Source: Armatimonadota bacterium
GTDB lineage: Bacteria > Armatimonadota > Fimbriimonadia > Fimbriimonadales > Fimbriimonadaceae
Direction: 5' to 3'
Length of the DNA: 64,000 bases
NCBI GenBank assembly: GCA_031386985.1
Contig: JANNCV010000005.1
Location: forward strand, 2,049 to 66,048
The notes under the pieces: model-generated
What the model was told of the DNA's origin: nothing
The model's database searches: none
Seen by the model: the letters and a program-made list of their open reading frames with translations, nothing else
Position numbers and translations under genes: made by a program
Shown here: in pieces, positions 9,804 to 51,912 of the stretch
Numbering within the stretch: position 1 is the first letter of the stretch
Layout of the letters: every line of letters starts with the position of its first letter

Positions 9804-9879
9804 GGGCCTGTAGCTCAGTGGTTAGAGCGGGCGGCTCATAACTGCTTGGTCGTGGGTTCGATCCCCACTGGGCCCACCA
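9804..9879 (+). tRNA. tRNA-Met (anticodon CAT), elongator type; a lysidine-modified tRNA-Ile2 is not excluded
   Basis: Hand-folded cloverleaf: acceptor GGGCCTG/TGGGCCC, D-arm GCTC-AGTGGTTA-GAGC, anticodon loop CT-CAT-AA, T-arm GTGGG-TTCGATC-CCCAC, encoded CCA. G1:C72 is paired, so it is not an initiator. Confidence 0.9.
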
Positions 9880-9917
9880 AATCCTCCTTTCGCCAACCCC
9901 TCTTGAAGCAAACCAAA

Positions 9918-29151: not shown

Positions 29152-32100
29152 ATGAAGATATTCCAGCACATGCGTCGCGCGGTATTGCCCGCCTTATTCA
29201 CTTTTATGCTTATGCTTGTTCCAAGCTGGGCCATGGCCGCTGGCTCTGAAGCCAACGTCACGCTTAACTTTTCGGATAGCGACAAGATTTACTTGTGGAT
29301 ATCATTCGGGCTCGGCTTTATCGCCCTGATTACCGGATGGTGGTTCCGTTCGAAGGTGACAAAAGAGTCGCCCGGTAACGAGAAAATGCAAGAAGTGGGC
29401 CTCGCCATTTACGAAGGGGCGATGGCTTACCTGAAGCAGCAGATCAGCACAATGATCTGGTTTGTTTTGGCAATCGCTGGGTTGCTTACATTTATTTACG
29501 GCAGGCAATACGATAGTTGGGCGCTTGGTGGTCTCACGGCCGCTAGCTTTATGCTCGGTGTAGCCGCATCATATATCGCGGGTTATGTTGGAATGGACAT
29601 GGCGGTCAAAGCAAATATGCGTACCGCGCATGCCGCTCTGACAAGCTACGCAAAAGCACTAGAGGTTTCATTCCAAGCAGGAGCGGTTGCTGGCCTTATA
29701 ACCGTTGGTATGGGCCTAGTAGGCGCGACGGCCATTCTCGCTTTCTTCTCGGCTGACGCCATGAAGCTGCTGATTGGCTTTGGTTTTGGCGGATCGCTAG
29801 CTGCGCTCTTTATGCGTGTTGGCGGTGGCATTTTTACGAAGGCCGCCGATGTTGGAGCTGATCTCGTTGGAAAGGTTGAAGCCGGAATCCCCGAGGATGA
29901 CGCCCGAAACCCCGCCACAATCGCGGATAACGTTGGCGACAACGTTGGCGATTGCGCCGGCATGGCGGCGGACGTTTTCGAATCCTATGAAGTGACCCTG
30001 GTTGCAGCTATCGTTCTTGGCGCGGCAACCGCCCAAATTTTTGACCAAACGACCTGGATGAAACTCATTCTGTTCGCACTGATGGCCCGTGGAGTCGGTA
30101 TTATTGCCTCCATCGCTGGCATCATGATGGTGAAGGGAAGTGACGATATTGACTCCGATCCGCTTAAGCCTATTAGTGGTGGATTCAAGAAATCAGCACT
30201 CATTGCCGCTGTCGGAACTTTGATTCTCGCCTACTTCATGATGGGCGGAAAAGAGGGTAGCAAGATCAACTCGTCGCGCTTGGTTTCAGGCAACGAAGTT
30301 GCGGTGAAACTAACAGACCTGGTTCATGAAGTTCGCGACGAGTTCGCGAAATCTAAGGGTATCAAGCCCGAGGCCGTCATGGCCGAGGATATTTCTGCGG
30401 ACAAGCGAATTGCTGATCTGGAGCTGCCTAAGCAGGCCGATCAAGCTGATCCGATGGCTCCGCACACCAGTAACCCGCTTATCCAGAACCTCATCAACAT
30501 TGAGCCCGAAGAACTCGTTGATTCTCCTCAACTTCCAAAACTGGAAGGATACAAGCCCGTTTCTTTGGACTCCAAAGAGCTCGAGCGATTTACCGCTATG
30601 AAGCAGACTCAGGCGGCGACAGGAGCTACCAACGAGTACAAATCTGTGAAAGACGTGCTGAAGGACTACCGGGTCTATCAAGCTGAGGTTATGCCTCCAG
30701 CTCAGCCTGGAAGCGCCGCCTCACCGATGCAGAAAATTTGGTTCCTCTCTTCGGACCTCCCCGCTTTGAAGGCTCAAATCACACCGATGGGCGGAAAAAT
30801 CAGTGACGAAAAGGGAGTTGGAGTTGTTGTTTATCTGAAAGATAAGCAGATTGCGCTTGGAATGGAAGTTCCGTCGGTAGACTCGTTGGTCAAGTTCCAA
30901 CCGGCCCAAGGGGCCATTACGGGCCAGCAAGCTCCTGATCAGATTTTCGCCATGTCGAAGGCGGAACTAGAAGAAAAGCAGAACTTGATCAAGGCCAAAA
31001 CGGACGAAGTCACTAAACTTTACGGCGAAGCTGATAAGCTAAAAGGCCCGGCTCAGGAGGCAAAGCGAAAGGAAGCGGCGAAGGTCAACAAGGCGTTGAG
31101 CGCAATGAAGCGACCAACTCCGGTCAAGATTAATCAAGGCGCCATCGAGCATATGCACGTTGAATGGTGGAGATTCGCGTTCTGCATCATCTTCGGCATT
31201 TTGATGGCATTCATCATCGAAAGGCTCACTGACTATTACGTCTCGCTAAACGGCAAGCCCGTTCGCGAAGTTGCTGGTGTTTCAAGTGCCGGCCCAGCTC
31301 CGATGATCATCAGCGGATTCGCCTTAGCCTGCGAATCAAGCGTGTTCTCAGTGCTCGCCATTGTTGCATCGCTGATTATGCCGCTTGTGCTATTCCCAGC
31401 CGCCGCTTATGGTGGCTACATCCTTAGCTTCTACGGAATCGCTTTGGTTGGACTGGGACTTCTAACAACCACGGGCTACATCCTCGCGATGGACACCTTT
31501 GGTCCGATTTCCGATAACGCCCAAGGCGTTTTTGAGATGTCGGGCGCGGGTCACGATAATCCTAAGGCGTCCAAAGCTGTTCAACGGCTTGATGCCGCGG
31601 GTAACACCACAAAAGCGCTTACTAAGGGCTTTGCGATTGCAACAGCGGTAGTTGCGGCGGTCGCGCTGTTCCACTCATTTGTCGAGGACGCTCACCTAAA
31701 CACCGTGGGAATGGGACTGCAAGTTCCCGAAATCTTCCTCGGCCTGTTGATCGGTGGCGCGGCTCCTTTCCTCTTCTCTGCCTTCTCAATCAACGCAGTT
31801 GGTCGAGCGGCATTTGAGTTGATCAACGAAGTTCGTCGCCAGTTCAAATCTGATCCCGGCATCATGGCGGGTACGAGCAAGCCGGACTATGGCATTTGCG
31901 TTAGCATCGTTACCGCGGCGGCTCAGAAAGAGCTACTGGGCCCAGGCATCCTCGCGATTGCCCTCCCCGTTGCGGTTGGCTTTGGTTTCAGCATCGGTCA
32001 ACCGCTGGTTAATATCGGTGGAAACGACTACAACCTTGTTGGCGCGCAAGCCCTTGGCGGCTTCCTCGCCGGCGCGATTCTATCTGGACAACTTCTCGCC

Positions 32101-32511
32101 GTTCTGCTCGCCAACTCTGGCGGTATGTGGGATAACGCGAAGAAGCTGGTTGAGGATGGTTTGTATGGCGGTAAGGGAAGCGATGCCCACAAAGCAGCTA
32201 TCGTTTGCGACACCGTTGGCGATCCGTTTAAGGATACGGCCGGCCCCGCAATGAATCCGCTAATCAAGGTTATGAACTTGGTTGCGCTCTTGCTTGCGCC
32301 GATCATCATCGTTCCTCACTCCTTGGCGGTTCAAGTCGGCGTAACGGTCGTCTGTGTCTCCGCTCTCACCTTCTCGATCTGGTGGTCGAAGCGCGGTTCG
32401 ATGGCTTCGGGCCTTTCGGAAGCCGGTACCCTTCCCGAGCCCCCGGTTACACCCGTGAAGAAATCCGATTCCGGCAAGAGAATCACGGTTGAGGACAACG
32501 ACGAAGCTTAA
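29152..32511 (+). CDS. hppA: membrane-bound (H+/Na+)-translocating pyrophosphatase with an insertion of about 300 aa
   Basis: mPPase blocks seen are '[32 protein letters not shown](T)[23 protein letters not shown]', 'DNAQGVFEM', 'DAAGNTTKA', 'GGMWDNAKK' and '[14 protein letters not shown]'. It is 1119 aa, versus roughly 650-800 aa for the enzymes I know. Confidence 0.9.
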   Translation: [1119 protein letters not shown]

Positions 32512-40289: not shown

Positions 40290-40400
40290 CGCAGACTATG
40301 CCGCTTGCGGCAGAGATTGGGAGCCGAACACGATGATCACGGGTTCGCAACCGGGAGTGCTCATCGTGCCGCGGTGCGAGCGGACCATCTAGGTCGCGTT

Positions 40401-41954
40401 CTACTTCGCCTTCGGCTTGATTACCTTCTTCGCCCGCTCCGGATCGTAGTTCATCCCGCGCTCGGGGCCGAGGCCGTAGAACTCGGGGTGTTGGTAGGTG
40501 CCACGTTCGAGGCCTTCCTTATCCACCTCCACGGGCGCGCCGCGCTTTTGAACCCACAAGTCGTTGCGTACCGCCTTGACCTCCCACGAGACCTTGACGG
40601 ACGGCTTGTTCGTGCGGATGACGAAACGGTTGTTGCGGACTTCCCGAACCACCTTCGCCAGCACGAAGTCGTCACTGTCGTCAATCACGGTGAGTGTGTA
40701 CCTCGGGTCTTTGTTGATCTCCTCGAAGTAGTCGGGGAGCGCGATGGTGGCGTAGCCCCTAGCGTCGGTGACCACGTTGCCGTTGTACACGTTCTGGGGC
40801 TCCGGCCCTTCGTGGGAGTAGTGGAGCAGGTACTTGTTCTCGGGGTCGAACGGATGGTCAATGCGGAATGTTTTTGTGCCGGAAGCACCGGAGCGGCCGA
40901 AAGCGTAGAGCCCATAGCCAGCACTTTGGGCTGTGCCTACCACGCCGAAGGTAGGGCCGCTGGCGGTGGCAAAGCCGTCGACGCCGCGCCCGCTCGGGCT
41001 GTTGCTCACGCCCGCAAGCCCTACGGTGACGCCGCTGGCGGCGGTGGCATGGCCCAGAACACCGATGCCGGACGAGCTGTCACTCCGCCCATACATGCCG
41101 TAGGTGGTGCCGCTGGAGGCAGGGGCCCAGCCATAGACGCCGGTCCCGCCCGTGCTGTAGCTCTGGCCGTACACACCGTAGCTGATGCCGCTGGTGGCGC
41201 CGGCCAGGCCGAGGACGCCAAGCCCGGACGTGCTAGAGCTCAGGCCGTACACACCGTAGGAGGAGCCCGTGCTGGCGGTAGCATAGCCGAGGACGCCATA
41301 GGAGCCGCCAGCCGTGGACGCGTTCTCGCCCCGGATGATGTGGGTGGCACTTGTTCCGCTGAGGGTCAGTGGGACAGGGATGGACTGCAAGAAAGCGGTG
41401 CTGTCCAAGCCGTCGAGCAGATTGGCGTTGACCCCGGTCAAGCCCGATCCGTTGCCCGAGAACACTCCCGTCGCAGAAACGTTGCCTTCGCCGAAAAGAG
41501 CGAATCCCCCTGGACTAAGATTTCGGCCATAGACCCCGTAGTTGAGGCCGGTCGTCGCATTCGATGACCCTTGGATTCCCTTTCCCGTCGGGCTGTTCGT
41601 GGTGAAAAACCCTCCCACCGTAAACCCGCTCGTGGCAACGGCGATTCCGGCGATGCCTCTTCCGGTCGTGCTGAACGATTGGAAGAGACCGCCGTAAGTT
41701 ACGCCGGAGGTAGCCGACGCATTCCCCAATACGCCGCGCCCGGATGTGCTCGCAGAGCGGAAGTCTCCGCCGAAAGCAATGCCAGTCGGCGTGCTTGAGT
41801 AGCCAACCATGATCCCCGCCTTCGCGGTGCCGGTTATATTCGAGTGCCCGGTCTGTGGAGTCCCGGGGGTTGTGGCTTGGAGGTTGACGGAGCCTTGGAA
41901 GGCAACGCCCGCGCCGACGACAGCGGTGGCGGCGAGTAAGAGTGATTTTTTCAT
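40401..41954 (-). CDS. secreted Gly-rich repeat (beta-solenoid/tail-fibre-like) protein, family member 1, with conserved 'FRIDHPFDPENKY' C-terminal domain
   Basis: It has a signal peptide 'MKKSLLLAATAVVGAGVAFQ', repeats of about 19-20 aa of type 'G.A.ATSG.TYGG.F.S.S..GRGV', 'GNGSGLTGVNANLLDG', and a C-terminal 'FRIDHPFDPENKYLLHYSHEGPEPQNVYNGNVVTDARGYATIALPDYFEEIN'. The SD is GAGGAAC. Confidence 0.8.
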   Translation of the reverse strand: MKKSLLLAATAVVGAGVAFQGSVNLQATTPGTPQTGHSNITGTAKAGIMVGYSSTPTGIAFGGDFRSASTSGRGVLGNASATSGVTYGGLFQSFSTTGRGIAGIAVATSGFTVGGFFTTNSPTGKGIQGSSNATTGLNYGVYGRNLSPGGFALFGEGNVSATGVFSGNGSGLTGVNANLLDGLDSTAFLQSIPVPLTLSGTSATHIIRGENASTAGGSYGVLGYATASTGSSYGVYGLSSSTSGLGVLGLAGATSGISYGVYGQSYSTGGTGVYGWAPASSGTTYGMYGRSDSSSGIGVLGHATAASGVTVGLAGVSNSPSGRGVDGFATASGPTFGVVGTAQSAGYGLYAFGRSGASGTKTFRIDHPFDPENKYLLHYSHEGPEPQNVYNGNVVTDARGYATIALPDYFEEINKDPRYTLTVIDDSDDFVLAKVVREVRNNRFVIRTNKPSVKVSWEVKAVRNDLWVQKRGAPVEVDKEGLERGTYQHPEFYGLGPERGMNYDPERAKKVIKPKAK

Positions 41955-42062: not shown

Positions 42063-44051
42063 CTACTTTGCCTTCGGCTTGATCGGCCTCTTCTCCCGCT
42101 GCGGATCGTAGTTCATTCCGCGCTCTGGGCCGAGGTTGTAGAGCTCGGGATGTTGGTATTTGCCTTTCTCAACCCCCTGCTTGTCTTCCACCTCCTTTGG
42201 CGGATTCCGGCGAACCCACAGATCGTTGCGGTCGGCATCAACTCGCCACGAAACCTCGACCTTTGGAGCGCTGGTTCGAATCAAGAAGCGGCCATCCTTG
42301 ATCTTCAGTGCAACTTTTGCAATCACAAAGTCATCCGTGTTCTTGCCATCCACCACCGTCAGTTGGTATTTGAAGTTCGCGTTGATCTCGGCAAAGTAAT
42401 CGGGAAGCTCCACCCAGGCGTAGCCCTTGGCGTCGGTAACCACATTCCCAACATAGAAGTTCTGGGGCACCGGGCTCTCGGTTGCGTAGTGGAGGAGATA
42501 CTTGTTCTCGGGATCGAACGGGTGGTCGATGCGGAAGGCTTTGATCGACGCCCCGATCCGCCCAGTGGCAAAGATGCCCCACCCGCTCGGGCTGACGCTC
42601 TGCCCCAACACGCCGTAAGTCGGGCCGCTGCCGGCACCGGCATAGCCGGAGACCGCGCGCCCGGACGTACTGAGGCTATCAAAGCGGCCGCCGTAAGTGA
42701 TGCCGCTGCTGGCGGAAACACCGTAGACGCCTGCGGCACCCTCGGACGTGCTGGAAGTTGTGCCTTGGACGCCGAAGGTGATGCCGGTGGAGGCGGAGGC
42801 CCAGCCGTGGACGCCGCGCCCGTCCGTGCCGGAAGCGGTGCCACGAACGCCTAAGCCGAACTCACCGGTCGCTGTGCCTATCACTCCATCGTAGCCGTTG
42901 CCTAGGACGCCGACGAAGCCACCGCTACCGTAAACCCCGGTTCCAGAGCTGCTGTTGCTCTGGCCGTACACGCCGCGCCCGGTTGAGCTGCTGCCGTAGA
43001 CGCCCGCCCCTTCCGGGCTGACACCCCGGCCTTGCACGCCGTAGTTGGCGCCGGTGTTCGCGATGGACTCGCCGTAGACACCGCGCCCGGACGGGCTGAC
43101 ACTCAGGCCGTACACGCCGGAGGTGAAACCGCTTCCGGCGCCGGCCTGGCCGTAAACGCCGCGCCCGGAATCGCTGTAACTCTCCCCATACACACCGTTG
43201 GTGACGCCGGTGCCAGCACGGACCTCGCCGAAGACGCCGCGCCCTTCCGTGCTGTCGCTCCGGCCGAACACGCCGTTGGTCACGCCCGCGCCACTAGAGG
43301 TGACCCCGACCACGCCGCTCCCATCCGGGCTCTGGGTCCGGCCGAGCACCCCGAAGACCTCTCCGCTGGCGGCGGTGGACTGGCCGGAGATGCCGACGGC
43401 GCCAGGGAACGCCGAGGCGTTCACCCCGCTGATGATGTGGGTGTCACTCGTCCCGCTGAGCGTGAGCGGCACGGGGATGGACTGCAGGAACGCGGACGAA
43501 CTGAGTCCGCCCAGCAGAGCGGCGTTCACGCTTGTCAGCCCTGACCCGTTGCCCGAAATGACCCCGCTCGCCGCCATGTTGCCGTCGGAGAAAACGCCAT
43601 AACCACTAGGACTGGTGGCCCTACCATAAACGCCGTAAGTTGTTCCAGACGCGGCGGTGGCTTGACCGTAAACTCCAAAACCCGCAACGCTAAGGCTTGA
43701 GAAGAATCCGCCGTAAGTGTTACCCGTCGCATTCTGAGCAATCCCCGCGACGCCTCTTCCGGCGTTGCTAAAGGATTGGAACAATCCGCCGTAGGTTGCA
43801 CCCGTGGTTGCGGACGCATTCCCCAATACGCCGCGCCCGGATGTGCTCGCAGAGCGGAAGTCCCCGCCAAAGGCGATACCGGTGGGCGTACTTGAATATC
43901 CAACCATGATCCCCGCCTTCGCGGTGCCCGTGACATTCAAGTGCCCGGTCTGGGGAGTCCCGGGGGTGGTGGGTTGTAGGTTGACTGAGCCTTGGAAGGC
44001 AACGCCCGCGCCGACGACGGCGGTGGCGGCGAGTAAGAGTGATTTTTTCAT
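42063..44051 (-). CDS. secreted Gly-rich repeat tail-fibre-like protein, family member 2
   Basis: Its first ~100 codons and 5' leader are nearly identical to member 1. It has a longer repeat region and the same C-terminal domain 'FRIDHPFDPENKYLLHYATESPVPQNFYVGNVVTDAKGYAWVELPDYFAEIN'. Confidence 0.8.
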   Translation of the reverse strand: MKKSLLLAATAVVGAGVAFQGSVNLQPTTPGTPQTGHLNVTGTAKAGIMVGYSSTPTGIAFGGDFRSASTSGRGVLGNASATTGATYGGLFQSFSNAGRGVAGIAQNATGNTYGGFFSSLSVAGFGVYGQATAASGTTYGVYGRATSPSGYGVFSDGNMAASGVISGNGSGLTSVNAALLGGLSSSAFLQSIPVPLTLSGTSDTHIISGVNASAFPGAVGISGQSTAASGEVFGVLGRTQSPDGSGVVGVTSSGAGVTNGVFGRSDSTEGRGVFGEVRAGTGVTNGVYGESYSDSGRGVYGQAGAGSGFTSGVYGLSVSPSGRGVYGESIANTGANYGVQGRGVSPEGAGVYGSSSTGRGVYGQSNSSSGTGVYGSGGFVGVLGNGYDGVIGTATGEFGLGVRGTASGTDGRGVHGWASASTGITFGVQGTTSSTSEGAAGVYGVSASSGITYGGRFDSLSTSGRAVSGYAGAGSGPTYGVLGQSVSPSGWGIFATGRIGASIKAFRIDHPFDPENKYLLHYATESPVPQNFYVGNVVTDAKGYAWVELPDYFAEINANFKYQLTVVDGKNTDDFVIAKVALKIKDGRFLIRTSAPKVEVSWRVDADRNDLWVRRNPPKEVEDKQGVEKGKYQHPELYNLGPERGMNYDPQREKRPIKPKAK

Positions 44052-44232
44052 TAGTTCCTCGGTGGAACTTGTATCTTATCACACGTTTGGCTAATGAGCG
44101 AAGACATTCGGCGCAGAGGGCGGGTTCTGGGAACAATCGAAGCTCGTTGGCTGTCACACGTCCGGGCCAAAGGCACCTCTCCCGTTCCGGCGGTCCAACC
44201 TAACGGCTTCTAGCCAACCGTCCGAGCTCAAA

Positions 44233-44263
44233 ACAAATAAAAAAACCCCGCCGGTGGGCGGGG
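44233..44263 (-). terminator. rho-independent terminator of 44300..44935
   Basis: The minus strand reads CCCCGCC-CACC-GGCGGGG followed by TTTTTTTATTTG. Confidence 0.85.
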
Positions 44264-44299
44264 AGGGGAGTTCCTCTATCTCGGGATAGAAGAGCGTTG

Positions 44300-44935
44300 C
44301 TAGGCTGCTTGCGACATGTTCTGCGTGCCGAACACGATGAGTACGGGCTCGGAGCCTTGCGAAACTTGGTCGCCGCGTTGCGAGCGGACCATGTAGGTGG
44401 CGCTGGTGGTGCCCGCCGTTAGCGTTCCATCAATGAACTGCTTCTTCGCCGTCGAACCGATTTGCGTCCAAGCTTGGGTGGAAAGCCTTCGCCATACGGT
44501 GAAGAACTGGGCATTTCGAACGGTGCCCTTCCAAGTGATCTGGATGGTGCCGTCGTTGCGCAAATGGGCGGCTACGTCGGTAACATCGGTAGGGGGACCG
44601 GCGGGGCTGGGCAGAGCGGGTGAAGGAATCTCGGCCAGAGCATAAATCTCGGTCGGATCATCATTCGACTCAGCCTTAGCCTTAATGGCGGCCAAGCACT
44701 CGGCCGAGACCGCTCGGAAAGTTGCCCAAGCTGAATCCGAGAGTTCGAATTTCGCTCTGGCGACGTTTCGAGCCGCATTGGCCGTGTTGATGGATGCATT
44801 GAGGGCGTTAGCTGCGGCAATATAAGCCGTAGATTGCGCCGCCGACATACCAATCGGGGCCGGGGTCGAAAAGGGCGTCAAGTGTGCTTGTCCCCAAGCG
44901 TTGGCGCCATTTTTTGTATTTGGTACGATTCCCAT
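44300..44935 (-). CDS. hypothetical protein with C-terminal fibronectin-III-like domain
   Basis: The ATG at 44935 lies 6 nt after GGAGGTG. 'PPTDVTDVAAHLRNDGTIQITWKGT..NAQFFTVWRR...YMVRSQRGDQVSQGSEPV' looks like FN3. The N-terminal part is Ala-rich helical. Confidence 0.65.
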   Translation of the reverse strand: MGIVPNTKNGANAWGQAHLTPFSTPAPIGMSAAQSTAYIAAANALNASINTANAARNVARAKFELSDSAWATFRAVSAECLAAIKAKAESNDDPTEIYALAEIPSPALPSPAGPPTDVTDVAAHLRNDGTIQITWKGTVRNAQFFTVWRRLSTQAWTQIGSTAKKQFIDGTLTAGTTSATYMVRSQRGDQVSQGSEPVLIVFGTQNMSQAA

Positions 44936-45081
44936 GAGATCACCTCCGTGGGGCCTCAGCGCTGTTCTTTTCCTTTTCACGATTGAAAGAAGACGACTTC
45001 GATCTGCGACATTAAAGTTATCGGCTATCCCGGTAATTTTCTTAGGGTATTTCTAAGAAAAGTGCCGCTCAGACTCTAAAT

Positions 45082-45291
45082 TATTCGAATCGGGCTCTCT
45101 GCGATTCGCGAAATTGTTTGTGTGATTCGAATAATTGTCCCCGCGATTCGCGAAACTGTCTGTGCGATTCGAATAATTGTCAGCGCGATCCGAATCATAA
45201 CTCTTGTGATTCGCGAAATTGTTACGACGATTCGACTCATAACCCGTGCGATTCCCGAAATTGTCTGTCCGATTAGCGAAACACTCAATCA
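45082..45291. repeat. tandem array of ten 21-bp units, each with a palindromic core (ATTCGCGAAAT / ATTCGAAT)
   Basis: The units read ATTCGAATCGGGCTCTCTGCG, ATTCGCGAAATTGTTTGTGTG, ATTCGAATAATTGTCCCCGCG, ATTCGCGAAACTGTCTGTGCG, ATTCGAATAATTGTCAGCGCG, ATCCGAATCATAACTCTTGTG, ATTCGCGAAATTGTTACGACG, ATTCGACTCATAACCCGTGCG, ATTCCCGAAATTGTCTGTCCG and ATTAGCGAAACACTCAATCAG. Confidence 0.9.
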
Positions 45292-45422
45292 GCAGGTGTA
45301 AACCTAAAGCCCGACGATGAATACAACAGCGCCACACACCCAGGGGGATTGTATGGCACGAAGTGCGCGTAGCTAGCTCAAAGTCGGCAGGAGAGCGTAT
45401 GGCGCGAGGACGCGTAGCTGCC

Positions 45423-46241
45423 TTAAAGTCCGTCGATCTGCCGAACAGACTCCTTGCACCACCAGTCAAGGTAGCTGCCGATCAGCCAGCTTACGTCATT
45501 GCCTAAGGTCGTGACCCTGTATGTTGGTAACGAAGTGGTCAGTTCCTGGGCGTTCATCGCTGGCGTGAAGAGGATGTCGCCACTTCCGTCTTCCTCAATG
45601 ACGTGGGCGTAGTAGTAGCGTTCGTGGATCGCGCTGTTCCGATGATCAATGATTTCTTCCAACCTCGATTTGACCAAGCCGGACTGATCGCGAAGCCAAG
45701 TTCGGACCTGTCCGGCATGGATGTGCGTGCGCCGCCTACCCCGTTGCGGTATTCCGGGCCAGAGCTGGGGGGACCGCTCGTTAAGTCGTATAGTGATTCG
45801 CGCCATTCGATCTTCCACGCCTGCTGCAAGAGCGATAATGGTGATGAAATGGATGGACAGTTCGCGCTCCATCCTGAGTGCCTCCCCTCCCCTAACTGCG
45901 TAGTGGTCATCGAAGGGAGTCGCATCAAAGCGCTCGCTCGGTACGTATTCGCCGGTCCTCTTTGCAAGTGCGTGAAACTCGTTGGCTAAGGCGCCCATCT
46001 TCCGATGGGTATGGCGAAGGTCCACTTCAAGTTGCTCAAGGTCGGCCATGTCAGTCGAATCGAGGTTTCTGAACTTGAGAAACTCCGCGACTCTACGACC
46101 CTCAGTAAAGCAAATGGTGCAAAAATTTGCGGTGCCGGGATCGAGCGTGTAATAGTAAGCTCTTCGCACGGCTCTAGTGTACTTAGCAGTTTGAAAATTT
46201 CGAGGCTTCAACCTCCAAACGTCGTTCTCCTCGAATGACAT
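45423..46241 (-). CDS. hypothetical protein with HEPN-like R-N-x-x-x-H motif
   Basis: 'LEEIIDHRNSAIHERYYY' has RNSAIH encoded at 45624-45641. No other recognisable domain was seen, and the gene is lower in GC than its neighbours. Confidence 0.6.
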   Translation of the reverse strand: MSFEENDVWRLKPRNFQTAKYTRAVRRAYYYTLDPGTANFCTICFTEGRRVAEFLKFRNLDSTDMADLEQLEVDLRHTHRKMGALANEFHALAKRTGEYVPSERFDATPFDDHYAVRGGEALRMERELSIHFITIIALAAGVEDRMARITIRLNERSPQLWPGIPQRGRRRTHIHAGQVRTWLRDQSGLVKSRLEEIIDHRNSAIHERYYYAHVIEEDGSGDILFTPAMNAQELTTSLPTYRVTTLGNDVSWLIGSYLDWWCKESVRQIDGL

Positions 46242-47145
46242 CTGGGTTCACTGGTGGGAACCATTGAGGGTTGGTCGCCCAATACGCTTTAGTCGTATCG
46301 TCGTCAACGAAGTGATTGAGCAAAGCCGCGTCGGAAAGGATGCGGCGGTAGACCTCTTTGCAAATGATCTCCGCGTCTGAGCATCTTGCGACGATCCGAT
46401 CTTCAGCCTGCTTCGCCGTCTCATTTGGCTTAACCAGATCCGAGAATGCCTTGACGTGCGCGACATTGCTTCGGATATCGTAAAGATCTTCAAGTAACTC
46501 TTTATTTGGCGATGATTTACCTATCATCACTTGCGCTTTCTCAACGAACGACGGTTTACCCTCATGTTTCTGACCGGCTTGTGTCGCTTCCAGGGCACGC
46601 GCAAAGAAGAACGCCCGGTCATCACAGGACCGCTCGGCAAGCCCCGAGCATATGGAAACCAAACCCTTCCTGAACCTCCTAAAGTCCTTAGAAAGGATCC
46701 GATCAATCCCCACAAGAACGGACTCCGCTTGCGATATTCGTGATCGGTCAACAAGGGTATAGGGTTGGCCATCGGTTTGCATCCACGGCCCGGCCTCGGA
46801 GTAACGCCTTAGATTCTCTTCCCCGTCCACGACCGATGAGCTTAAGATGACCGGTGCGGAATTAAAACGAACGCCGGTGAGCATCAACGACATTGTGAAT
46901 CGCCATGCGCGCTCGACCAGTTGGCTATGCTCCTGGTCGAGAATATTTGGCTTTTCAGACTCCATCGATGCGACGATTAAAAGGTCGCACTCATGTAACT
47001 GCTCCAACTTCCACTTGCCCAGTCCTTCAACCCAAAAGGGAGAGTCAATCGTTACATCGCGGCGCAACTCGATGCCAGACCCGAGTTCTATGGGTAGCTC
47101 CAACTGGAGAAAGGGTAGCTGCAGACCGACGTAGCCGCATTTCAT
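46183..47145 (-). CDS. hypothetical protein with HEPN-like R-x4-H motif
   Basis: 'LLEDLYDIRSNVAHVKAF' has RSNVAH encoded at 46456-46473. The start is placed at the ATG at 47145 ('MKCGYVGL'), because the ORF-track N-terminus (to 47337) is made of the 175-bp repeat. It overlaps the downstream gene by 59 nt. Confidence 0.6.
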   Translation of the reverse strand: MKCGYVGLQLPFLQLELPIELGSGIELRRDVTIDSPFWVEGLGKWKLEQLHECDLLIVASMESEKPNILDQEHSQLVERAWRFTMSLMLTGVRFNSAPVILSSSVVDGEENLRRYSEAGPWMQTDGQPYTLVDRSRISQAESVLVGIDRILSKDFRRFRKGLVSICSGLAERSCDDRAFFFARALEATQAGQKHEGKPSFVEKAQVMIGKSSPNKELLEDLYDIRSNVAHVKAFSDLVKPNETAKQAEDRIVARCSDAEIICKEVYRRILSDAALLNHFVDDDTTKAYWATNPQWFPPVNPDVIRGERRLEVEASKFSNC

Positions 47146-47182
47146 CTGTTGATCGATTCTAGCATTCAGTGAGCTACGCGCA

Positions 47183-47357
47183 CCTCGCGCCATACGACGC
47201 CCCTTGGCCGTATGGCGCAGCTTGGAATCATTGGGAGTAAACTCGCATCGGGCAAAGCCGTTCGGATGAATTGGAAATGAAAGCTGATTACGACAGCGCC
47301 ACACGTGAGCCGCGTGCCGGGACAATCCGGTCGGCACGAGAGCGTATGGAGCGAGGG
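47183..47357 (+). repeat. about 175-bp MITE-like repeat, copy 1, with terminal inverted repeats CCTCGCGCCATACG / CGTATGGAGCGAGG
   Basis: It is a near-identical direct copy of 48873..49049. It has an internal hairpin GCGCCATACG-12nt-CGTATGGCGC at its 5' end. Confidence 0.8.
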
Positions 47358-47474
47358 ACCGTAAGGCTCCCCAAGCATTTGTGAGAGAGGAACAGGCACA
47401 TTCAGCAGTGGCTAACGCCGCTCCAACGCCCCATCGCCCACTCCGGCACCCGCTCGTCTCTCCCAGTTCCGGGC

Positions 47475-48794
47475 CTACCGCGGGCCTGCGGCGATGAAGG
47501 TGAAGCCCGTATCGAGCTTTGCTCCTGCGACATTGAAATTGATGATCCGAACGATTGACGTTGAGACGGAGGCGATGACCACGACTTCTGGGGCAGTTAC
47601 AGCACCCGACGTCGCCGTCACGACCGGGATATCGGCAAACGGCGTCGTGAAAGTGATTGTGTAGTCACCGATCGCCTCACCGGCCGTGCGTGCAATCGTC
47701 CAGCCCGTTCCGTGGGTGGCCGTCAAATTGTTAGTTCTCCCACGGATTATCCGGAGATTTTCACCCCCCTCGCTGGCCACGGCGTCGAACTCTCCCGTTG
47801 GGCCAAGCCTAATGTCGCCGCGGACATCGAGCTTTGCGGTTGGAGAGGTCGTGCCGATTCCGACGCCGTTATCATCAATGCGCATTCTCTCGGATCCGTT
47901 TGTTGTAAATCCCAAGACGCCGGACCCCTCCTTAAACAGCCCGGTGTTGGGATCATTGAGAAAGGACAGCGCTGGCACCAGGCTACTTCCGTTAGAGAGG
48001 AGCACTGGACTTGAGAAGATGTTCAAAGCAGTGAACGTGTTCGCTGCATTCTTCAAGGGCACGTTGCTCGAAAGGCGAGCATCGGCAAGCGTGCCCGAGG
48101 CGAGGTTGGAAGCACTCAGGCCTGTCAGCTGGAAGCCATTGCCAAAGAAAGTGTTCGCAGGGTTGCTAAAGTTGTTCTGCCCTGTCCAGGCGTTCAGACT
48201 GTTCAACAGTCCGACATTGCCGGAAAGCCGCGCATCGGCGACATTGCCTGTCGCAAGATTGGTTGCGTTCAGGGCCGTCAGTCCCGAGCCGTTGCCAGAG
48301 ATGATGCCCTCGGCGTGCATGTTGCCTTCGCTATAAACGCCAAACCCATCCGGGCTCACGGCTTTGCCTTTTACGCCAAAGTTCACTCCCGTCGTGGCTC
48401 TGGCTTGGCCGAAGATGCCGTTGCCGATGATCGAGTCTGAAGTAAAGAACCCGCCGAAGTTCGTGCCGTTCGTAGCGGCGGCAATACCGCCGACGGCTCG
48501 GCCCTGGGCGCTGAAGGTTTGGAACAGCCCCCCAAAGTTCGGCCCCGTTGTTGCGCTTGCATTCCCCAGAATCGCCCGCCCATTCGGGCTGGCGGTGCGA
48601 AAGTCTCCGGCGATGACTTGGCCGGTGGGAACGGTCGAGTTGGCAACGAACTGCCCGGCTTTCGAGGTGCCGGAGATGTTCGAGTGCCCGACTTGCAAAG
48701 TGCCGGGGGTGGTGGCTTGTAGGTTGACGGAGCCTTGGAAGGCGACAGTGCCACCGATGGCAGCGATTGATGTGAGTAAAGCGTATCGTTTCAT
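47475..48794 (-). CDS. secreted Gly-rich repeat tail-fibre-like protein, family member 3 (different C-terminal module, H-type-lectin-like by eye)
   Basis: It shares the family N-terminus 'AFQGSVNLQATTPGTLQVGHSNISGTSKAG'. It has 'GNGSGLTALNATNLATGNVADARLSGNV' and 'LTGLSASNLASGTLADARLSSNV' tail-fibre-type repeats. Its C-terminus 'YTITFTTPFADIPVVTATS...GFTFIAAG' replaces the FRIDHP domain. Confidence 0.8.
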   Translation of the reverse strand: MKRYALLTSIAAIGGTVAFQGSVNLQATTPGTLQVGHSNISGTSKAGQFVANSTVPTGQVIAGDFRTASPNGRAILGNASATTGPNFGGLFQTFSAQGRAVGGIAAATNGTNFGGFFTSDSIIGNGIFGQARATTGVNFGVKGKAVSPDGFGVYSEGNMHAEGIISGNGSGLTALNATNLATGNVADARLSGNVGLLNSLNAWTGQNNFSNPANTFFGNGFQLTGLSASNLASGTLADARLSSNVPLKNAANTFTALNIFSSPVLLSNGSSLVPALSFLNDPNTGLFKEGSGVLGFTTNGSERMRIDDNGVGIGTTSPTAKLDVRGDIRLGPTGEFDAVASEGGENLRIIRGRTNNLTATHGTGWTIARTAGEAIGDYTITFTTPFADIPVVTATSGAVTAPEVVVIASVSTSIVRIINFNVAGAKLDTGFTFIAAGPR

Positions 48795-48872
48795 ATAAGT
48801 AGTTATCCTCCGAGTAGGAACTTATATCTTAGCCGAGAAACTCGCAAAATGCAAGTTTGGACAGCTCCGCGT

Positions 48873-49049
48873 CCTCGCGCCATACGACGCCCCTTGGCCG
48901 TGTGGCGCAGACTGGAATCACTGTGAGTAAACTCCCATCAGTCTAAGCTAGAGGATGAATTGGAAAATGAAAGCTGATTACGACAGCGCCACACGTGAGC
49001 CGCGTGCCGGGACAATCCGGTCGGCAGAAGGGCATATGGGGCGAGGGGC
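48873..49049 (+). repeat. about 175-bp MITE-like repeat, copy 2
   Basis: It aligns with 47183..47357 end to end, including the block 'gaaagctgattacgacagcgccacacgtgagccgcgtgccgggacaatccggtcggca'. Confidence 0.8.
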
Positions 49050-49111
49050 CCGAAGGTGTTCAAATGCTGGAACGCGGGTAACTTGCCGGCATTGGGATTA
49101 TGAGGATTCTT

Positions 49112-49357
49112 ATGAAATTATCAAAACTTACTGCTTGCTTGTGTTTCGTTTTCTTGCAAGGCATTGTGTTCGCGCAAGTTGGAAGCTCAATTTCGCTTCC
49201 CCGTGTAGACTCCGCACGGTGTGCGCGACAGGAAATTGATTCTCAATATCAGCGGTGCGAAGGAACTTCGATTGGAAGGAAACTTGTCGAGCCACATTTC
49301 GAATGTGCCACAAGGGTTCGGGGTAATTTCAAATTATCTCTGCGATTCGAATCGTAA
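49112..49357 (+). CDS. possible small secreted Cys-containing protein (speculative ORF)
   Basis: The ATG lies 5 nt after GAGGA. It has a signal-like 'MKLSKLTACLCFVFLQGIVFAQ' and sits in an AT-rich patch. Its 3' end runs into the 21-bp array, so coding status is doubtful. Confidence 0.25.
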   Translation: MKLSKLTACLCFVFLQGIVFAQVGSSISLPRVDSARCARQEIDSQYQRCEGTSIGRKLVEPHFECATRVRGNFKLSLRFES

Positions 49358-49449
49358 CTCTTGTGATTCGCGAAATTGTTTGGACGATTCGACTCATAAC
49401 CCGTGCGACGCCCGAAATTGTCTGTCCAATTCGCGAAACACTCAATCAG
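49326..49449. repeat. second 21-bp tandem array (about 6 units), homologous to units 6-10 of 45082..45291
   Basis: The units include ATTCGAATCGTAACTCTTGTG, ATTCGCGAAATTGTTTGGACG, ATTCGACTCATAACCCGTGCG, ACGCCCGAAATTGTCTGTCCA and ATTCGCGAAACACTCAATCAG. It is followed by the same about 90-bp tail (CAGCAGGTGTAAAC...ACAGCGC.ACACACCCAGGGGGATTGTATGGCACGAAGTGCGCG) as the first array. Confidence 0.85.
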
Positions 49450-49573
49450 CAGGTGTAAACTCAAAGACCGACGATGAATTCAACAGCGCAACACACCCAG
49501 GGGGATTGTATGGCACGAAGTGCGCGCAGCTCGCTCAAACGAAACAAGTGAACACTTCAGCCAGCTAAGACCG

Positions 49574-51553
49574 CTATTTTGCCTTCGCCTTGCTACGCGA
49601 TGCCTCCGGAGACGGCTTGGTCAGCTTCCTCGCCCGCTCTGGATCGTAGTTCATTCCCCGCTCGGGGCCGAGGCCGTAGAGTTCAGGGTGCTGGTAGGTT
49701 CCTCTTTCTCGCCCTTCCTTGTCTATCTCAACCTTGGGTGGGCGGTTGCGCACGTAGAGGTCGTTGCGGTCGGCTTCTACTCGCCATGAGACTTTGGTGT
49801 TGGGAGCGCTGGTTCTGATCTGGAACCCGATAGAGATGATCCCCGGCTGGACAGAAACGCCCTCTTTGGGGATGGGTGGCAACTGGATCTCTTCGCTAAC
49901 CATGGCCTGAACAAAGTCTTTGCCGCGGCTTACCACCGTCAACTGATACTTGAAGTTCGTATTGATCTCGGCGAAGTAATCGGGAAGCTCGACCCAGGCA
50001 TATCCCTTGGCATCGGTTGTGATATTCCCGCTGTAAAAGTTCTGCGGCATGGGACTCTCGGCGGCATAGTGAAGCAGATACTTGTTTTCGGGGTCAAATG
50101 GATGGTCTATTCGGAACGGCTTCGTCCCGCTCGCTCCCATATTGCCAATGGAATAAACGCCGAATCCTGCCGCGCTATCACTTTGCCCGATGGCACCGTA
50201 GTTCGCACCAGAAGTAGAGGTTGCCCGTCCAAAAAGCGCATATCCGGTTGCGCTAGCATTCCTTCCATCAATGCCCGCAAAGCCCGAGGTGGTCAGCCCC
50301 CAAATTGCCGTGTCGGAGGCGGAAACCACGGTTGCGCCCCGGCCCGTTCCAGTGTTTGTGATGGAGACGGCGTCGGGGCCGACACCCGTGAAGTGTCCTG
50401 CATATCCTTGCGAGCTATTGCTCAGGCCCTGGATGCCAAAGGAGACCCCCGATGCGGATGAGGCGTAGCCGAAGACTCCGCGACCATCTGGGCTCAAACT
50501 CTCGAACCTGCCGCCATACGTGAGGCCGCTCGCGGTGTTGGCCAATGCCGAGATACCCATAGATCCGCCAGTCGCGCTCACACCGACAGTCCCGCCTTGC
50601 GAGAGCACGCCAGGACCCCCTGCGCTACTGGCAAAGACTCCATACGCATTGCCGATTGCGCGTACACCAGTTCCCCCCAAGCCATCGAACCAACCGCCGT
50701 AGGTGACAGCGGAGCCGGGTCCGCCCTGGCCGAAGATTCCTACCCCGAGCACACTGTCGGTCCGCCCATAAACGCCATAATTTAGGCCGAAGGTAGCGGG
50801 CGCATGGCCGTAGACACCGCGCCCGGTCTGGCTATTGGTCATGCCGTGCACCCCGTAGTTGAGGCCGCTGGTCGCGCTCGCGAGGGCGAAAACGCCAATC
50901 CCACTTGGACTCTTGGACTCGCCGGACACCCCAACATTTGTCGCGGCGGTGCTGTGGGCAATACCCTGTACGGCGGTCGCGAAGAAGGCGCCATTGCTGG
51001 TGCTGGCCTGAATTGTCCAAACCTCACTTCCCGTAAGTACAAGTGGTCCGTCACCCGAAATGACCCCCGTTGCGTGCATATTGCCTTCAGAAAAGACGCC
51101 AAATCCACTTGGGCTCACGGCTTTGCCATAAACTCCATAGGTCGTACCGGTCGCGCTCGTGGCTTGCCCATAGAGTCCTCGCCCCTGGTTACTCAAGCTG
51201 CTGAAGAAGCCACCGTAAGTGGTTCCGGATGAGTTTTGGGCGATTCCGGCTACACCGCGCCCAGCGTTGCTGAAGTTTTGGAACAGACCACCATAGGTCG
51301 CGCCTGTAGTCGAGGAAGCATTGCCAAGCAAAGCCCGCCCTTCATTGCTGGCGGCCCGGAAGTCTCCGCCAAAGGTTTGACCGGTTGGAGTAGTGCTATA
51401 CCCCACCATCGAGCCCGCCTTAGCCGTGCCGGTGATATTAAGGTGCCCAGTCTGTGGGGTCCCGGGAGTTGTAGCTTGTAAGTTGACTGAGCCTTGGAAG
51501 GCAACGGTGCCGCCAACTACGGCGGTGACAACCAATAGTGCATGTTTTTTCAT
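49574..51553 (-). CDS. secreted Gly-rich repeat tail-fibre-like protein, family member 4, with 'FRIDHPFDPENKY' C-terminal domain
   Basis: 'MKKHALLVVTAVVGGTVAFQGSVNLQATTPGTPQTGHLNITGTAKAG' is the family N-terminus. The C-terminal domain matches members 1 and 2 but has an extra insert 'EEIQLPPIPKEGVSVQPGIISIG'. The start is set at the ATG at 51553. Confidence 0.8.
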   Translation of the reverse strand: MKKHALLVVTAVVGGTVAFQGSVNLQATTPGTPQTGHLNITGTAKAGSMVGYSTTPTGQTFGGDFRAASNEGRALLGNASSTTGATYGGLFQNFSNAGRGVAGIAQNSSGTTYGGFFSSLSNQGRGLYGQATSATGTTYGVYGKAVSPSGFGVFSEGNMHATGVISGDGPLVLTGSEVWTIQASTSNGAFFATAVQGIAHSTAATNVGVSGESKSPSGIGVFALASATSGLNYGVHGMTNSQTGRGVYGHAPATFGLNYGVYGRTDSVLGVGIFGQGGPGSAVTYGGWFDGLGGTGVRAIGNAYGVFASSAGGPGVLSQGGTVGVSATGGSMGISALANTASGLTYGGRFESLSPDGRGVFGYASSASGVSFGIQGLSNSSQGYAGHFTGVGPDAVSITNTGTGRGATVVSASDTAIWGLTTSGFAGIDGRNASATGYALFGRATSTSGANYGAIGQSDSAAGFGVYSIGNMGASGTKPFRIDHPFDPENKYLLHYAAESPMPQNFYSGNITTDAKGYAWVELPDYFAEINTNFKYQLTVVSRGKDFVQAMVSEEIQLPPIPKEGVSVQPGIISIGFQIRTSAPNTKVSWRVEADRNDLYVRNRPPKVEIDKEGRERGTYQHPELYGLGPERGMNYDPERARKLTKPSPEASRSKAKAK

Positions 51554-51912
51554 GGTTGTTTCCATTGTAGCCCGAACCCCAAGCACGGGCGAAGGTCGCT
51601 TACTTCTTGCCTTTGCCGCGATTTACCGGTTGGACAATGCTCCGGCTTCTGTGTCAGCCGATTCTGTTGTATCCGCGAAGCTGATCATGGGGCAATGATT
51701 TCTCGCGACTCAAGCCGAACAGTTCGAGATGCGGGGCATCATGAGGCACGAGGGCGTGTAGCTCCCCCAAAGTTTGGAGCTATCAAAGGTTGGCTCAGAA
51801 GCCTTGAAGGCAGTATTGGACGCGATTCATAACCCAGAACGACGGATCTATTAGAAGTCAGTCCGAATGATTTCGCAGGAAAACCGCATGTCGGGCCATA
51901 CTCCTGTTGCAA

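What the first reader, a model, noticed from the sequence alone, without database searches (positions are those of the whole stretch)
45423..47145. Two adjacent, overlapping genes each carrying an R-x4-H (HEPN-like) motif inside a repeat-bounded, lower-GC patch: a candidate toxin/defence cassette
Seen: the 272-aa protein contains '...EIIDHRNSAIHERYY' (RNSAIH, nt 45624-45641). The upstream protein of about 320 aa contains '...LYDIRSNVAHVKAF' (RSNVAH, nt 46456-46473). Both motifs sit in predicted helical C-terminal regions. The ORFs overlap by 59 nt in the same orientation. The cassette is visibly less GC-rich than the flanking Gly-rich genes. It is bounded by a 21-bp tandem array on one side and a 175-bp MITE-like repeat on the other. 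Established: R-x4-6-H (often R-N/S-x-x-x-H) is the catalytic signature of HEPN RNases, which are found in abortive-infection, toxin-antitoxin and CRISPR-associated effectors. HEPN toxins are usually paired with MNT or other antitoxins. Inference: a HEPN-HEPN pair with no nucleotidyltransferase partner could be an uncharacterised two-component defence or addiction module. A six-residue motif is weak evidence on its own.
Basis: partly seen in the sequence, partly recalled or inferred. Interest (0 to 1): 0.65.

Follow-up and report, generated by a model that had tools for sequence, protein, structure and literature searches.

The report
Two adjacent orphan HEPN-like genes
Two neighbouring genes of unknown function each keep a conserved Arg-Asn-x3-His signature typical of HEPN RNase toxins, but they belong to two rare, unrelated families that are never found together elsewhere, so this looks like two separate toxin or defence candidates and not a new two-part system.

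Summary
Gene A (46183-47145, minus strand, 320 aa) and gene B (45423-46241, minus strand, 272 aa) exist, and the motifs RSNVAH and RNSAIH sit at the stated coordinates.

In a single sequence the motif is no rarer than chance. Shuffling gives at least one R-x4-H in 31% of trials for A and 69% for B. Conservation is what counts:
- In A's 4 relatives (27-47% identity), R225 and H230 are invariant.
- In B's 7 relatives (20-41% identity), R201 and H206 are 2 of only 8 invariant columns.
- The residue after the Arg is N, S, H or D.
- In the model of A the motif lies at the end of a helix, ahead of a long final helix.

This matches the published HEPN description. However, no Pfam, NCBIfam, PADLOC, PHROG, PDB-sequence or Foldseek search places either protein in a known family, so the HEPN fold is likely but not shown.

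The two-gene system reading fails. None of 4 other A loci has a B-like gene, and none of 7 other distinct B loci with DNA has an A-like gene. One distant A relative lies in a Bradyrhizobium plasmid defence island. GC is normal for this genome. The 59-nt overlap is probably an artefact of the start-codon choice.

These are ordinary new members of a known kind.

The parts
46183..47145 (-). Gene A, 320 aa. It has an N-terminal alpha/beta region (about residues 1-130) and a C-terminal all-helical domain (about 134-318). An alternative start at ATG 47193 lies inside the Y repeat.
   Evidence: ORF. Relatives P0003, P0004, L010 and L011. AlphaFold2 model with pLDDT 64 and pTM 0.70.
46456..46473 (-). 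Gene A motif R225-S-N-V-A-H230, the candidate HEPN catalytic motif.
   Evidence: R225, V228 and H230 are invariant in 5 sequences down to 27% identity. In the model it sits at the end of helix 212-228, before the loop to helix 244-271.
46615..46623 (-). Gene A D175-D176-R177, a conserved acidic/basic patch in an upstream helix (174-189).
   Evidence: R177 is invariant in 5 sequences. D175 is invariant in the 4 closer ones.
45423..46241 (-). Gene B, 272 aa as the longest ORF. The real start is probably GTG 46172 (249 aa). The core conserved in all relatives is about residues 118-272.
   Evidence: ORF. Seven relatives from an exhaustive HMMER search. Alignment A2. Relatives align only from residue 27 onward.
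45624..45641 (-). Gene B motif R201-N-S-A-I-H206, the candidate HEPN catalytic motif.
   Evidence: R201 and H206 are two of only 8 invariant columns in 8 sequences at 20-41% identity. The residue after R is N in 6, H in 1 and D in 1.
45807..45812 (-). Gene B D144-R145, an invariant acidic/basic pair in an upstream helix.
   Evidence: Invariant in A2. In the joint alignment of both families it aligns with A's R177. That column and the R and H of the motif are the only three invariant columns.
47172..47366 (-). Repeat Y', about 190 nt with terminal inverted repeats, just upstream of gene A. Its other copy at 48863-49056 lies just upstream of the 439-aa Gly-rich gene.
   Evidence: Its fold is no more stable than shuffled sequence (z = -1.0).
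45096..45382 (-). A degenerate 21-nt tandem array (45096-45281) and repeat X' (45185-45382), just downstream of gene B. The other copy of X at 49342-49539 lies just downstream of the 670-aa Gly-rich gene.
44246..44263 (-). The only strong intrinsic-terminator-like site downstream of A and B. It lies after the next gene (226 aa, 44300-44980).
   Evidence: 7 G-C pairs followed by a run of T.

Best explanation
A and B are two unrelated, very rare protein families. Each carries a C-terminal helical domain with the catalytic signature of HEPN metal-independent RNases: R-[NSHD]-x3-H at the end of a helix, plus an upstream conserved Asp/Arg patch. Each is most likely a self-contained single-gene toxin or abortive-infection type effector. 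In this reading the N-terminal part (about 130 aa in A, about 120 aa in B) senses or restrains, and the HEPN-like domain cleaves RNA once activated, probably as a homodimer as in other HEPN enzymes. Their adjacency here is a local juxtaposition, possibly co-transcribed, and not a conserved system.

Shown: conservation of the motif, its position relative to the helices in A, solitary occurrence of both families, and one defence-island context for A.

Inferred: the HEPN fold, RNase activity, a toxin or defence role, and dimerisation.
For: - Motif in A: R225 and H230 are invariant in all 5 A-family sequences, including a 27%-identical plasmid protein.
- Motif in B: R201 and H206 are invariant in 8 B-family sequences at 20-41% identity, where only 8 columns are invariant at all.
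- The residue after R is N/S (A) or N/H/D (B). The published HEPN rule is 'mostly N, D or H' (PMC3710099).
- In the A model (pTM 0.70; C-terminal domain pLDDT about 70-90) the motif ends helix 212-228 and opens the loop to helix 244-271. A conserved acidic/basic patch lies two helices upstream, with an extra helix between. [quoted passage not shown]
- Profile-profile comparison of A and B aligns only the motif region (P = 0.008). In the joint alignment the only invariant columns are R177/R145, R225/R201 and H230/H206.
- Weak hints: Foldseek lists a HEPN domain protein, 4nqf_A, at rank 8 with probability 0.38. The core of B relative P0007 scores E = 0.13 against Pfam HEPN_Cthe2314.
- Context: a distant A relative (E = 2e-21) lies on the Bradyrhizobium plasmid pBsp2S1b beside a PD-Lambda-3_A-like gene, a HEPN/Toprim-associated protein, AbiV and CBASS.
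- Context: B relative P0009 is fused to DUF2442, a domain reported mostly in antitoxins. P0011 lies next to a Schlafen AlbA_2 gene.
- Solitary occurrence of both families.
Against: - No significant match of either protein, or of any relative, to any Pfam, NCBIfam, PADLOC or PHROG model, or to any PDB sequence.
- Foldseek with the A model found nothing at E <= 0.001 in PDB or BFVD.
- The B model is unusable (pLDDT 44), so its fold is untested.
- The upstream conserved patch is D-R or D-D-R, not the usual E-x3-[KR].
- In the window the neighbours are Gly-rich secreted proteins, not defence genes. Several relatives sit among housekeeping genes: L010 between nadA and mnmG, and L008 beside pyruvate kinase.
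- No antitoxin or regulator has been identified.
Confidence: 0.45

Rival explanations
1. One reading: A and B together form a dedicated two-component HEPN-HEPN toxin/antitoxin or defence module. One protein neutralises or activates the other.
For: The genes are on the same strand and are adjacent or overlapping, at most 10 nt apart. There is no terminator between them, and the first strong terminator lies after the next gene. Both carry the motif.
Against: - Four other A-family loci carry no B-like gene: L001/L002, L003, L010 and L011/L015.
- Seven other B-family loci with DNA carry no A-like gene: L004-L009 and L012-L014. Three of them have under 250 nt of upstream sequence. This was checked by tblastn and by HMM search.
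- The genes downstream of A relatives differ and are unrelated to each other: a 211-aa gene, a 178-aa PD-Lambda-3_A-like gene, or a convergent gene.
- Neither family has a conserved partner of any kind.
Confidence: 0.1
2. Neither protein is a HEPN RNase. The conserved Arg and His serve some other role, such as ligand or nucleic-acid binding or a different catalytic site, in novel helical proteins with a housekeeping or regulatory function.
For: All profile and structure searches were negative. Some relatives sit in ordinary chromosomal neighbourhoods. GC and GC3 are native to this genome.
Against: Two unrelated families share the same three invariant positions, the same polar residue after the Arg, and the same placement at a helix end. 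Both have an extremely patchy, rare distribution: 3 clusters for A among 5.8 billion sequences, and 8 clusters for B among 1.8 billion representatives. That pattern is typical of conflict genes, not housekeeping genes. There is also the defence-island context.
Confidence: 0.3
3. The A-B pair is the cargo of a mobile, repeat-bounded cassette (MITE-flanked or composite element) recently inserted among the Gly-rich genes.
For: An imperfect 60-nt inverted repeat (78%) brackets the pair at 45317-45374 and 47172-47231. Repeats X and Y flank it.
Against: - The same repeats flank the neighbouring Gly-rich genes in the same upstream (Y) and downstream (X) positions. They therefore look like shared intergenic or regulatory sequence of a duplicated gene cluster.
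- Only two copies of each occur in 64 kb.
- GC and GC3 are native.
- No transposase or integrase is adjacent.
- No related cassette was found elsewhere.
Confidence: 0.1

Closest known systems
Single-protein HEPN abortive-infection or defence effectors (AbiV, AbiD/AbiF, AbiU2, ApeA; HEPN superfamily of Anantharaman et al. 2013, PMC3710099)
   Same: A conserved R-[N/D/H]-x3-H at the end of a helix in a C-terminal helical domain. An N-terminal accessory region. Stand-alone genes with a very patchy distribution. One A relative lies two genes away from an AbiV gene and a HEPN/Toprim-associated gene in a plasmid defence island.
   Different: No detectable sequence or profile similarity to any of these families. 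The upstream conserved patch is D-R or D-D-R, not E-x3-[KR]. B has about 40 non-helical residues between the motif and the last helix. No phenotype is known.
HEPN-MNT (HepT/MntA) type VII toxin-antitoxin pairs
   Same: A small helical protein with R-x4-H. B's 'RNSAIHERYY' recalls, from memory only, the 'RNxxxHxY' of DUF86/HepT. The genes are arranged in tandem.
   Different: No nucleotidyltransferase gene is present. The neighbour is another motif-bearing protein. Neither protein matches DUF86 or HEPN Pfam models. The pairing is not conserved.
Cthe_2314-like HEPN (Pfam PF18730)
   Same: This is the only HEPN model that any family member touches. The core of B relative P0007 matches it over the motif region. 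The family is listed as having a conserved Rx4-6H and no known operon partner (PMC3710099, Table 1).
   Different: E = 0.13 and 12.7 bits against a cut-off of 27.1, so it is far below threshold. B itself and the six other relatives do not match.

Membership tests
HEPN superfamily | Conserved R-x4-6-H motif | tested here: met
   A: R225 and H230 are invariant in 5 sequences. B: R201 and H206 are invariant in 8 sequences.
HEPN superfamily | Residue after the Arg is polar, mostly N, D or H (PMC3710099) | tested here: met
   A family: S or N. B family: N in 6, H in 1, D in 1.
HEPN superfamily | [quoted passage not shown] | tested here: inconclusive
   The A model places the motif at the end of helix 212-228, before helix 244-271. 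Domain pLDDT is about 70-90, but it dips below 50 at residues 229-231. The B model has pLDDT 44 and cannot be used.
HEPN superfamily | Significant profile or structure match to a known HEPN family | tested here: not met
   The only Pfam hit to a HEPN model is one relative's core segment at E = 0.13. NCBIfam, PADLOC, PHROGs and PDB sequences gave no HEPN hit. The best HEPN hit in Foldseek was 4nqf_A at E = 0.87, probability 0.38.
HEPN superfamily | Second conserved acidic residue upstream in helix-2, typically E-x3-[KR] | tested here: inconclusive
   Conserved D175-D176-R177 in A and an invariant D144-R145 in B lie in an upstream helix. Neither has the E-x3-[KR] form.
HEPN superfamily | Metal-independent RNase activity that depends on R and H | not testable with these tools
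   This needs biochemistry.
HEPN-MNT toxin-antitoxin | Adjacent minimal nucleotidyltransferase (MNT) partner | tested here: not met
   No nucleotidyltransferase domain was found in A, B or the flanking genes.
   No B-like gene in 4 other A loci, and no A-like gene in 7 other B loci.
Known anti-phage systems (PADLOC-DB v2) | Match to a system component model | tested here: not met
   No hit at E <= 1 for A, B or the B relatives. No hit at E <= 0.01 for the two distant A relatives tested.
MITE (for the flanking 190-nt repeat) | Terminal inverted repeats and many dispersed copies | tested here: inconclusive
   Terminal inverted repeats are present. Only 2 copies occur in 64 kb, both upstream of genes in one cluster. 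Target-site duplications were not examined.

The most novel reading that the evidence does not exclude
A and B found two previously undescribed branches of the HEPN superfamily, each with a new N-terminal sensor domain. Their fusion-like juxtaposition here, 10 nt apart or overlapping, captures the birth of a heteromeric HEPN-HEPN RNase, in which two different HEPN domains build one composite active site as the two HEPN domains of Cas13 do.
Probability: 0.07. Interest if true: 0.6.

Novelty: new member of a known kind. Interest (0 to 1): 0.3.

Why it matters
If confirmed, these would add two small families to the already large and diverse HEPN RNase superfamily. Both are absent from Pfam, NCBIfam and PADLOC. 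They would also be two further candidate single-gene toxin or abortive-infection effectors, and one of them has a relative in a plasmid defence island. That is useful for annotation and defence-gene catalogues, but it would not change how HEPN systems are understood. The more interesting claim, a partner-less HEPN-HEPN two-component system, is not supported.

Tried and rejected
- Family libraries gave nothing. I ran Pfam, NCBIfam, PADLOC and PHROGs on A, B, all relatives and the core-only segments.
- PDB sequence searches with single sequences and with profiles A1, A2 and A3 at E <= 10 gave nothing relevant.
- Foldseek with the A model against PDB and BFVD gave no significant hit. The poorly modelled N-terminal third could not be trimmed.
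- The B model was built from a single sequence before its relatives were known. It came out at pLDDT 44, and its Foldseek hits are meaningless.
- hhalign of the A and B cores against the AbiV and HEPN/Toprim-associated proteins of L011, as single sequences, was uninformative.
- Scans of GTDB genome contigs and IMG/VR viral contigs for both families found nothing. The wider alignments A2 and A3 were too divergent to derive search patterns.
- tblastn against phages and plasmids gave only the Bradyrhizobium hit for A.
- I looked for a conserved partner among the neighbours of relatives by blastp and HMM search and found none.
- Rfam on 44000-49700 gave only sub-threshold chance hits.
- I rejected the low-GC horizontal-transfer-island idea.
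- I rejected ATG 47193 as evidence of a longer gene A. It lies inside repeat Y, and in the other copy of Y the same ATG opens only a short ORF.
- The organism could not be identified. It is a bacterial chromosome carrying LeuRS, H+-PPase, CPSase and Pup ligase.

Full report
**What is there.** On the minus strand, ORF A runs from 47145 (ATG) to 46183 and encodes 320 aa. ORF B runs from 46241 (ATG) to 45423 and encodes 272 aa. Both genes are real. Each has relatives elsewhere that keep the reading frame and many residues.

**Gene starts.** The longest-ORF start of A (GTG 47337) and a gene caller's start (ATG 47193, protein P0002) both lie inside a repeated element. In the other copy of that element the same ATG opens only a short ORF. 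Relatives align from the residue after ATG 47145. For B, every relative starts at or after B residue 27. A GTG at codon 24 (46172) lies 10 nt after A's stop. The 59-nt overlap is therefore probably an artefact of taking the longest ORF. Either way the two genes are tightly linked. The only strong terminator-like site downstream lies after the next gene, at 44263-44246.

**Is the motif more than chance?** In a single sequence it is not. Shuffling each protein gives at least one R-x4-H in 31% of trials for A and 69% for B. B actually contains four R-x4-H strings. Conservation changes the picture.

- The A family is tiny. A search of 5.8 billion protein clusters found two relatives, P0003 and P0004, at 46-48% identity.
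- A metagenome scan added a third A relative, L010, at 43% identity.
- tblastn found a 27%-identical protein on Bradyrhizobium sp. 2S1 plasmid pBsp2S1b, WP_166308774.1, at E = 2e-21.
- In the five-sequence alignment, R225, V228 and H230 are invariant.
- B had no relative in the word-indexed search. An exhaustive HMMER scan of 1.84 billion representatives found seven, at 20-41% identity.
- In the eight-sequence B alignment only eight columns are invariant. Two of them are R201 and H206, and two more are D144 and R145.
- The residue after the Arg is S or N in A, and N (6), H (1) or D (1) in B.

**Fit to the published HEPN description.** Anantharaman et al. 2013 (PMC3710099) make four relevant points. 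The residue after the conserved R is 'mostly N, D or H'. [quoted passage not shown] Many families have a second conserved acidic residue upstream, in helix-2. [quoted passage not shown]

The AlphaFold2 model of A was built from 3 sequences and has pLDDT 64 and pTM 0.70, with the C-terminal domain mostly at 70-90. It shows these elements in order:

- helix 156-170;
- helix 174-189, which carries the conserved D175-D176-R177;
- an extra helix 197-208;
- helix 212-228, ending in R225;
- a loop containing H230;
- a long helix 244-271.

This is the canonical arrangement. B's model was built from one sequence, has pLDDT 44, and cannot be used.

A and B are not detectably homologous. Profile-profile comparison aligns only about 24 columns around the motif, at P = 0.008. 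When all 15 sequences of both families are aligned together, the only invariant columns are A R177 / B R145, A R225 / B R201 and A H230 / B H206.

**What could not be shown.** No library places either protein, or any relative, in a known family. This covers Pfam, NCBIfam, PADLOC and PHROGs and PDB sequences. The only touch is the core of B relative P0007 against Pfam HEPN_Cthe2314, at E = 0.13 and 12.7 bits against a cut-off of 27.1. Foldseek with the full-length A model gave no hit at E <= 0.001. A HEPN domain protein, 4nqf_A, appears at rank 8 with probability 0.38, and a HepT toxin, 7bxo_H, at rank 28, both among unrelated helical proteins. The viral library gave nothing. The HEPN fold is therefore the best-fitting hypothesis, not a demonstrated fact.

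**The two-gene system does not hold.** The A-family loci are as follows.

| Locus | Neighbourhood of the A relative |
|---|---|
| L001/L002 | After a Peptidase_M10 gene; followed by a convergent DUF6265 gene |
| L003 | Followed by an unrelated 211-aa gene |
| L010 | Between nadA plus a small 124-aa ORF and a convergent mnmG-like gene, on a 254-kb contig |
| L011/L015 | Followed, 9 nt later, by a 178-aa gene with a partial PADLOC PD-Lambda-3_A match (E = 6e-7) |

The B-family loci are as follows.

| Locus | Neighbourhood of the B relative |
|---|---|
| L005 | After a Tricorn/PD40 gene |
| L006 | After an unrelated low-complexity ORF |
| L009 | After a 243-aa gene and a Schlafen AlbA_2 gene |
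| L008 | Beside pyruvate kinase |
| L012-L014 | After an unrelated 242-249-aa gene |
| L004, L007 | Truncated contigs |

tblastn of all family members against all loci, and HMM searches of the neighbours, found no A-like gene near any B relative, no B-like gene near any A relative, and no conserved partner of any kind. Both families behave as solitary genes.

**Hints of a conflict role.**
- The Bradyrhizobium A relative lies in an evident defence island. Downstream are the PD-Lambda-3_A-like gene, a HEPN/Toprim-associated protein, AbiV, and a CBASS operon with SAVED, SMODS, bacterial HORMA, Cap8 and an AAA ATPase.
- B relative P0009 is a fusion of DUF2442 with the B core. DUF2442 is reported to occur mainly in antitoxins and in a DUF4160/DUF2442 toxin-antitoxin pair.
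- Both families are extremely rare and patchy, and are absent from one genome per GTDB species and from IMG/VR. This suits conflict genes better than housekeeping genes.
- Against this, the window locus itself is not a defence island. Its neighbours are four paralogous secreted Gly-rich proteins.

**Composition and repeats.** The window as a whole is 54.6% GC. A has GC 0.519 and GC3 0.586; B has 0.541 and 0.626. Both fall inside the spread of 31 other window genes (means 0.549 and 0.615). It is the Gly-rich neighbours that are unusually GC-rich, at 0.58-0.64. There is therefore no compositional sign of recent transfer.

The flanking repeats are real but have only two copies each, both within this gene cluster.
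- Y (47172-47366 and 48863-49056, 87% identity) sits just upstream of a gene start in both copies and has terminal inverted repeats.
- X (45185-45382 and 49342-49539, 92% identity) sits just downstream of a gene stop in both copies.
- A degenerate 21-nt array lies at 45096-45281.
- An imperfect 60-nt inverted repeat brackets the pair.
- Y's predicted fold is no more stable than shuffled sequence.

The repeats look like shared intergenic sequence of a duplicated cluster and not transposon ends, although a mobile-cassette origin is not excluded.

**Verdict.** The best explanation, at about 45% confidence, is two independent single-gene HEPN-like candidate RNase toxin or abortive-infection effectors lying side by side. 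Three alternatives remain: the proteins are not HEPN at all (about 30%), they form a true A-B module (about 10%), or they are cargo of a mobile cassette (about 10%). The finding is a plausible new member of a known kind, of modest interest.

Noticed in passing
window 40401-41954, 42063-44051, 47475-48794, 49574-51586 (all minus strand): Four paralogous proteins of 439-670 aa with a signal-peptide-like N-terminus. They are Gly-rich with 78-nt (26-aa) internal repeats, and three of them share a conserved C-terminal region. None matches any Pfam family. They are much more GC-rich than the rest of the window (GC3 up to 0.78).
   Followed up: partly
window 45317-45374 and 47172-47231; also 45396-45420 and 48862-48886: Imperfect inverted repeats (60 nt at 78%; 25 nt at 96%) bracket the A-B pair and link it to the intergenic region upstream of the 439-aa gene. 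Repeat Y always lies just upstream of a gene and repeat X just downstream. They could be regulatory, recombination-related or mobile.
   Followed up: partly
window 9846-12056 (+): A carbamoyl-phosphate synthase large-chain ORF (736 aa) has a Pfam Y1_Tnp (IS200-like transposase) match at residues 545-604, between the CPSase domains (28 bits, cut-off 23). This could be an insertion or a fused fragment.
   Followed up: no
window 29152-32511 (+): The H+-translocating pyrophosphatase ORF is 1119 aa, and its Pfam match is split into two stretches. That is unusually long and suggests an insertion or an N-terminal extension.
   Followed up: no
L003 1315-1950 (+): The unrelated 211-aa gene downstream of an A-family relative also contains an R-N-x3-H string (RNRTLH at residue 54). 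Its conservation could not be tested.
   Followed up: no
L011 8877-9413 (+) (Bradyrhizobium plasmid NZ_CP147719.1 260335-260871): A 178-aa gene annotated 'methionyl-tRNA formyltransferase-like' lies 9 nt downstream of the distant A relative. It gives a partial PADLOC PD-Lambda-3_A match (E = 6e-7). It may form an operon with the A relative inside a defence island.
   Followed up: partly
window 44300-44402 and 40296-40398: The 3' end of the 226-aa gene downstream of B is duplicated (74-90% identity) just downstream of the 517-aa Gly-rich gene. This suggests that the whole region arose by segmental duplication.
   Followed up: no
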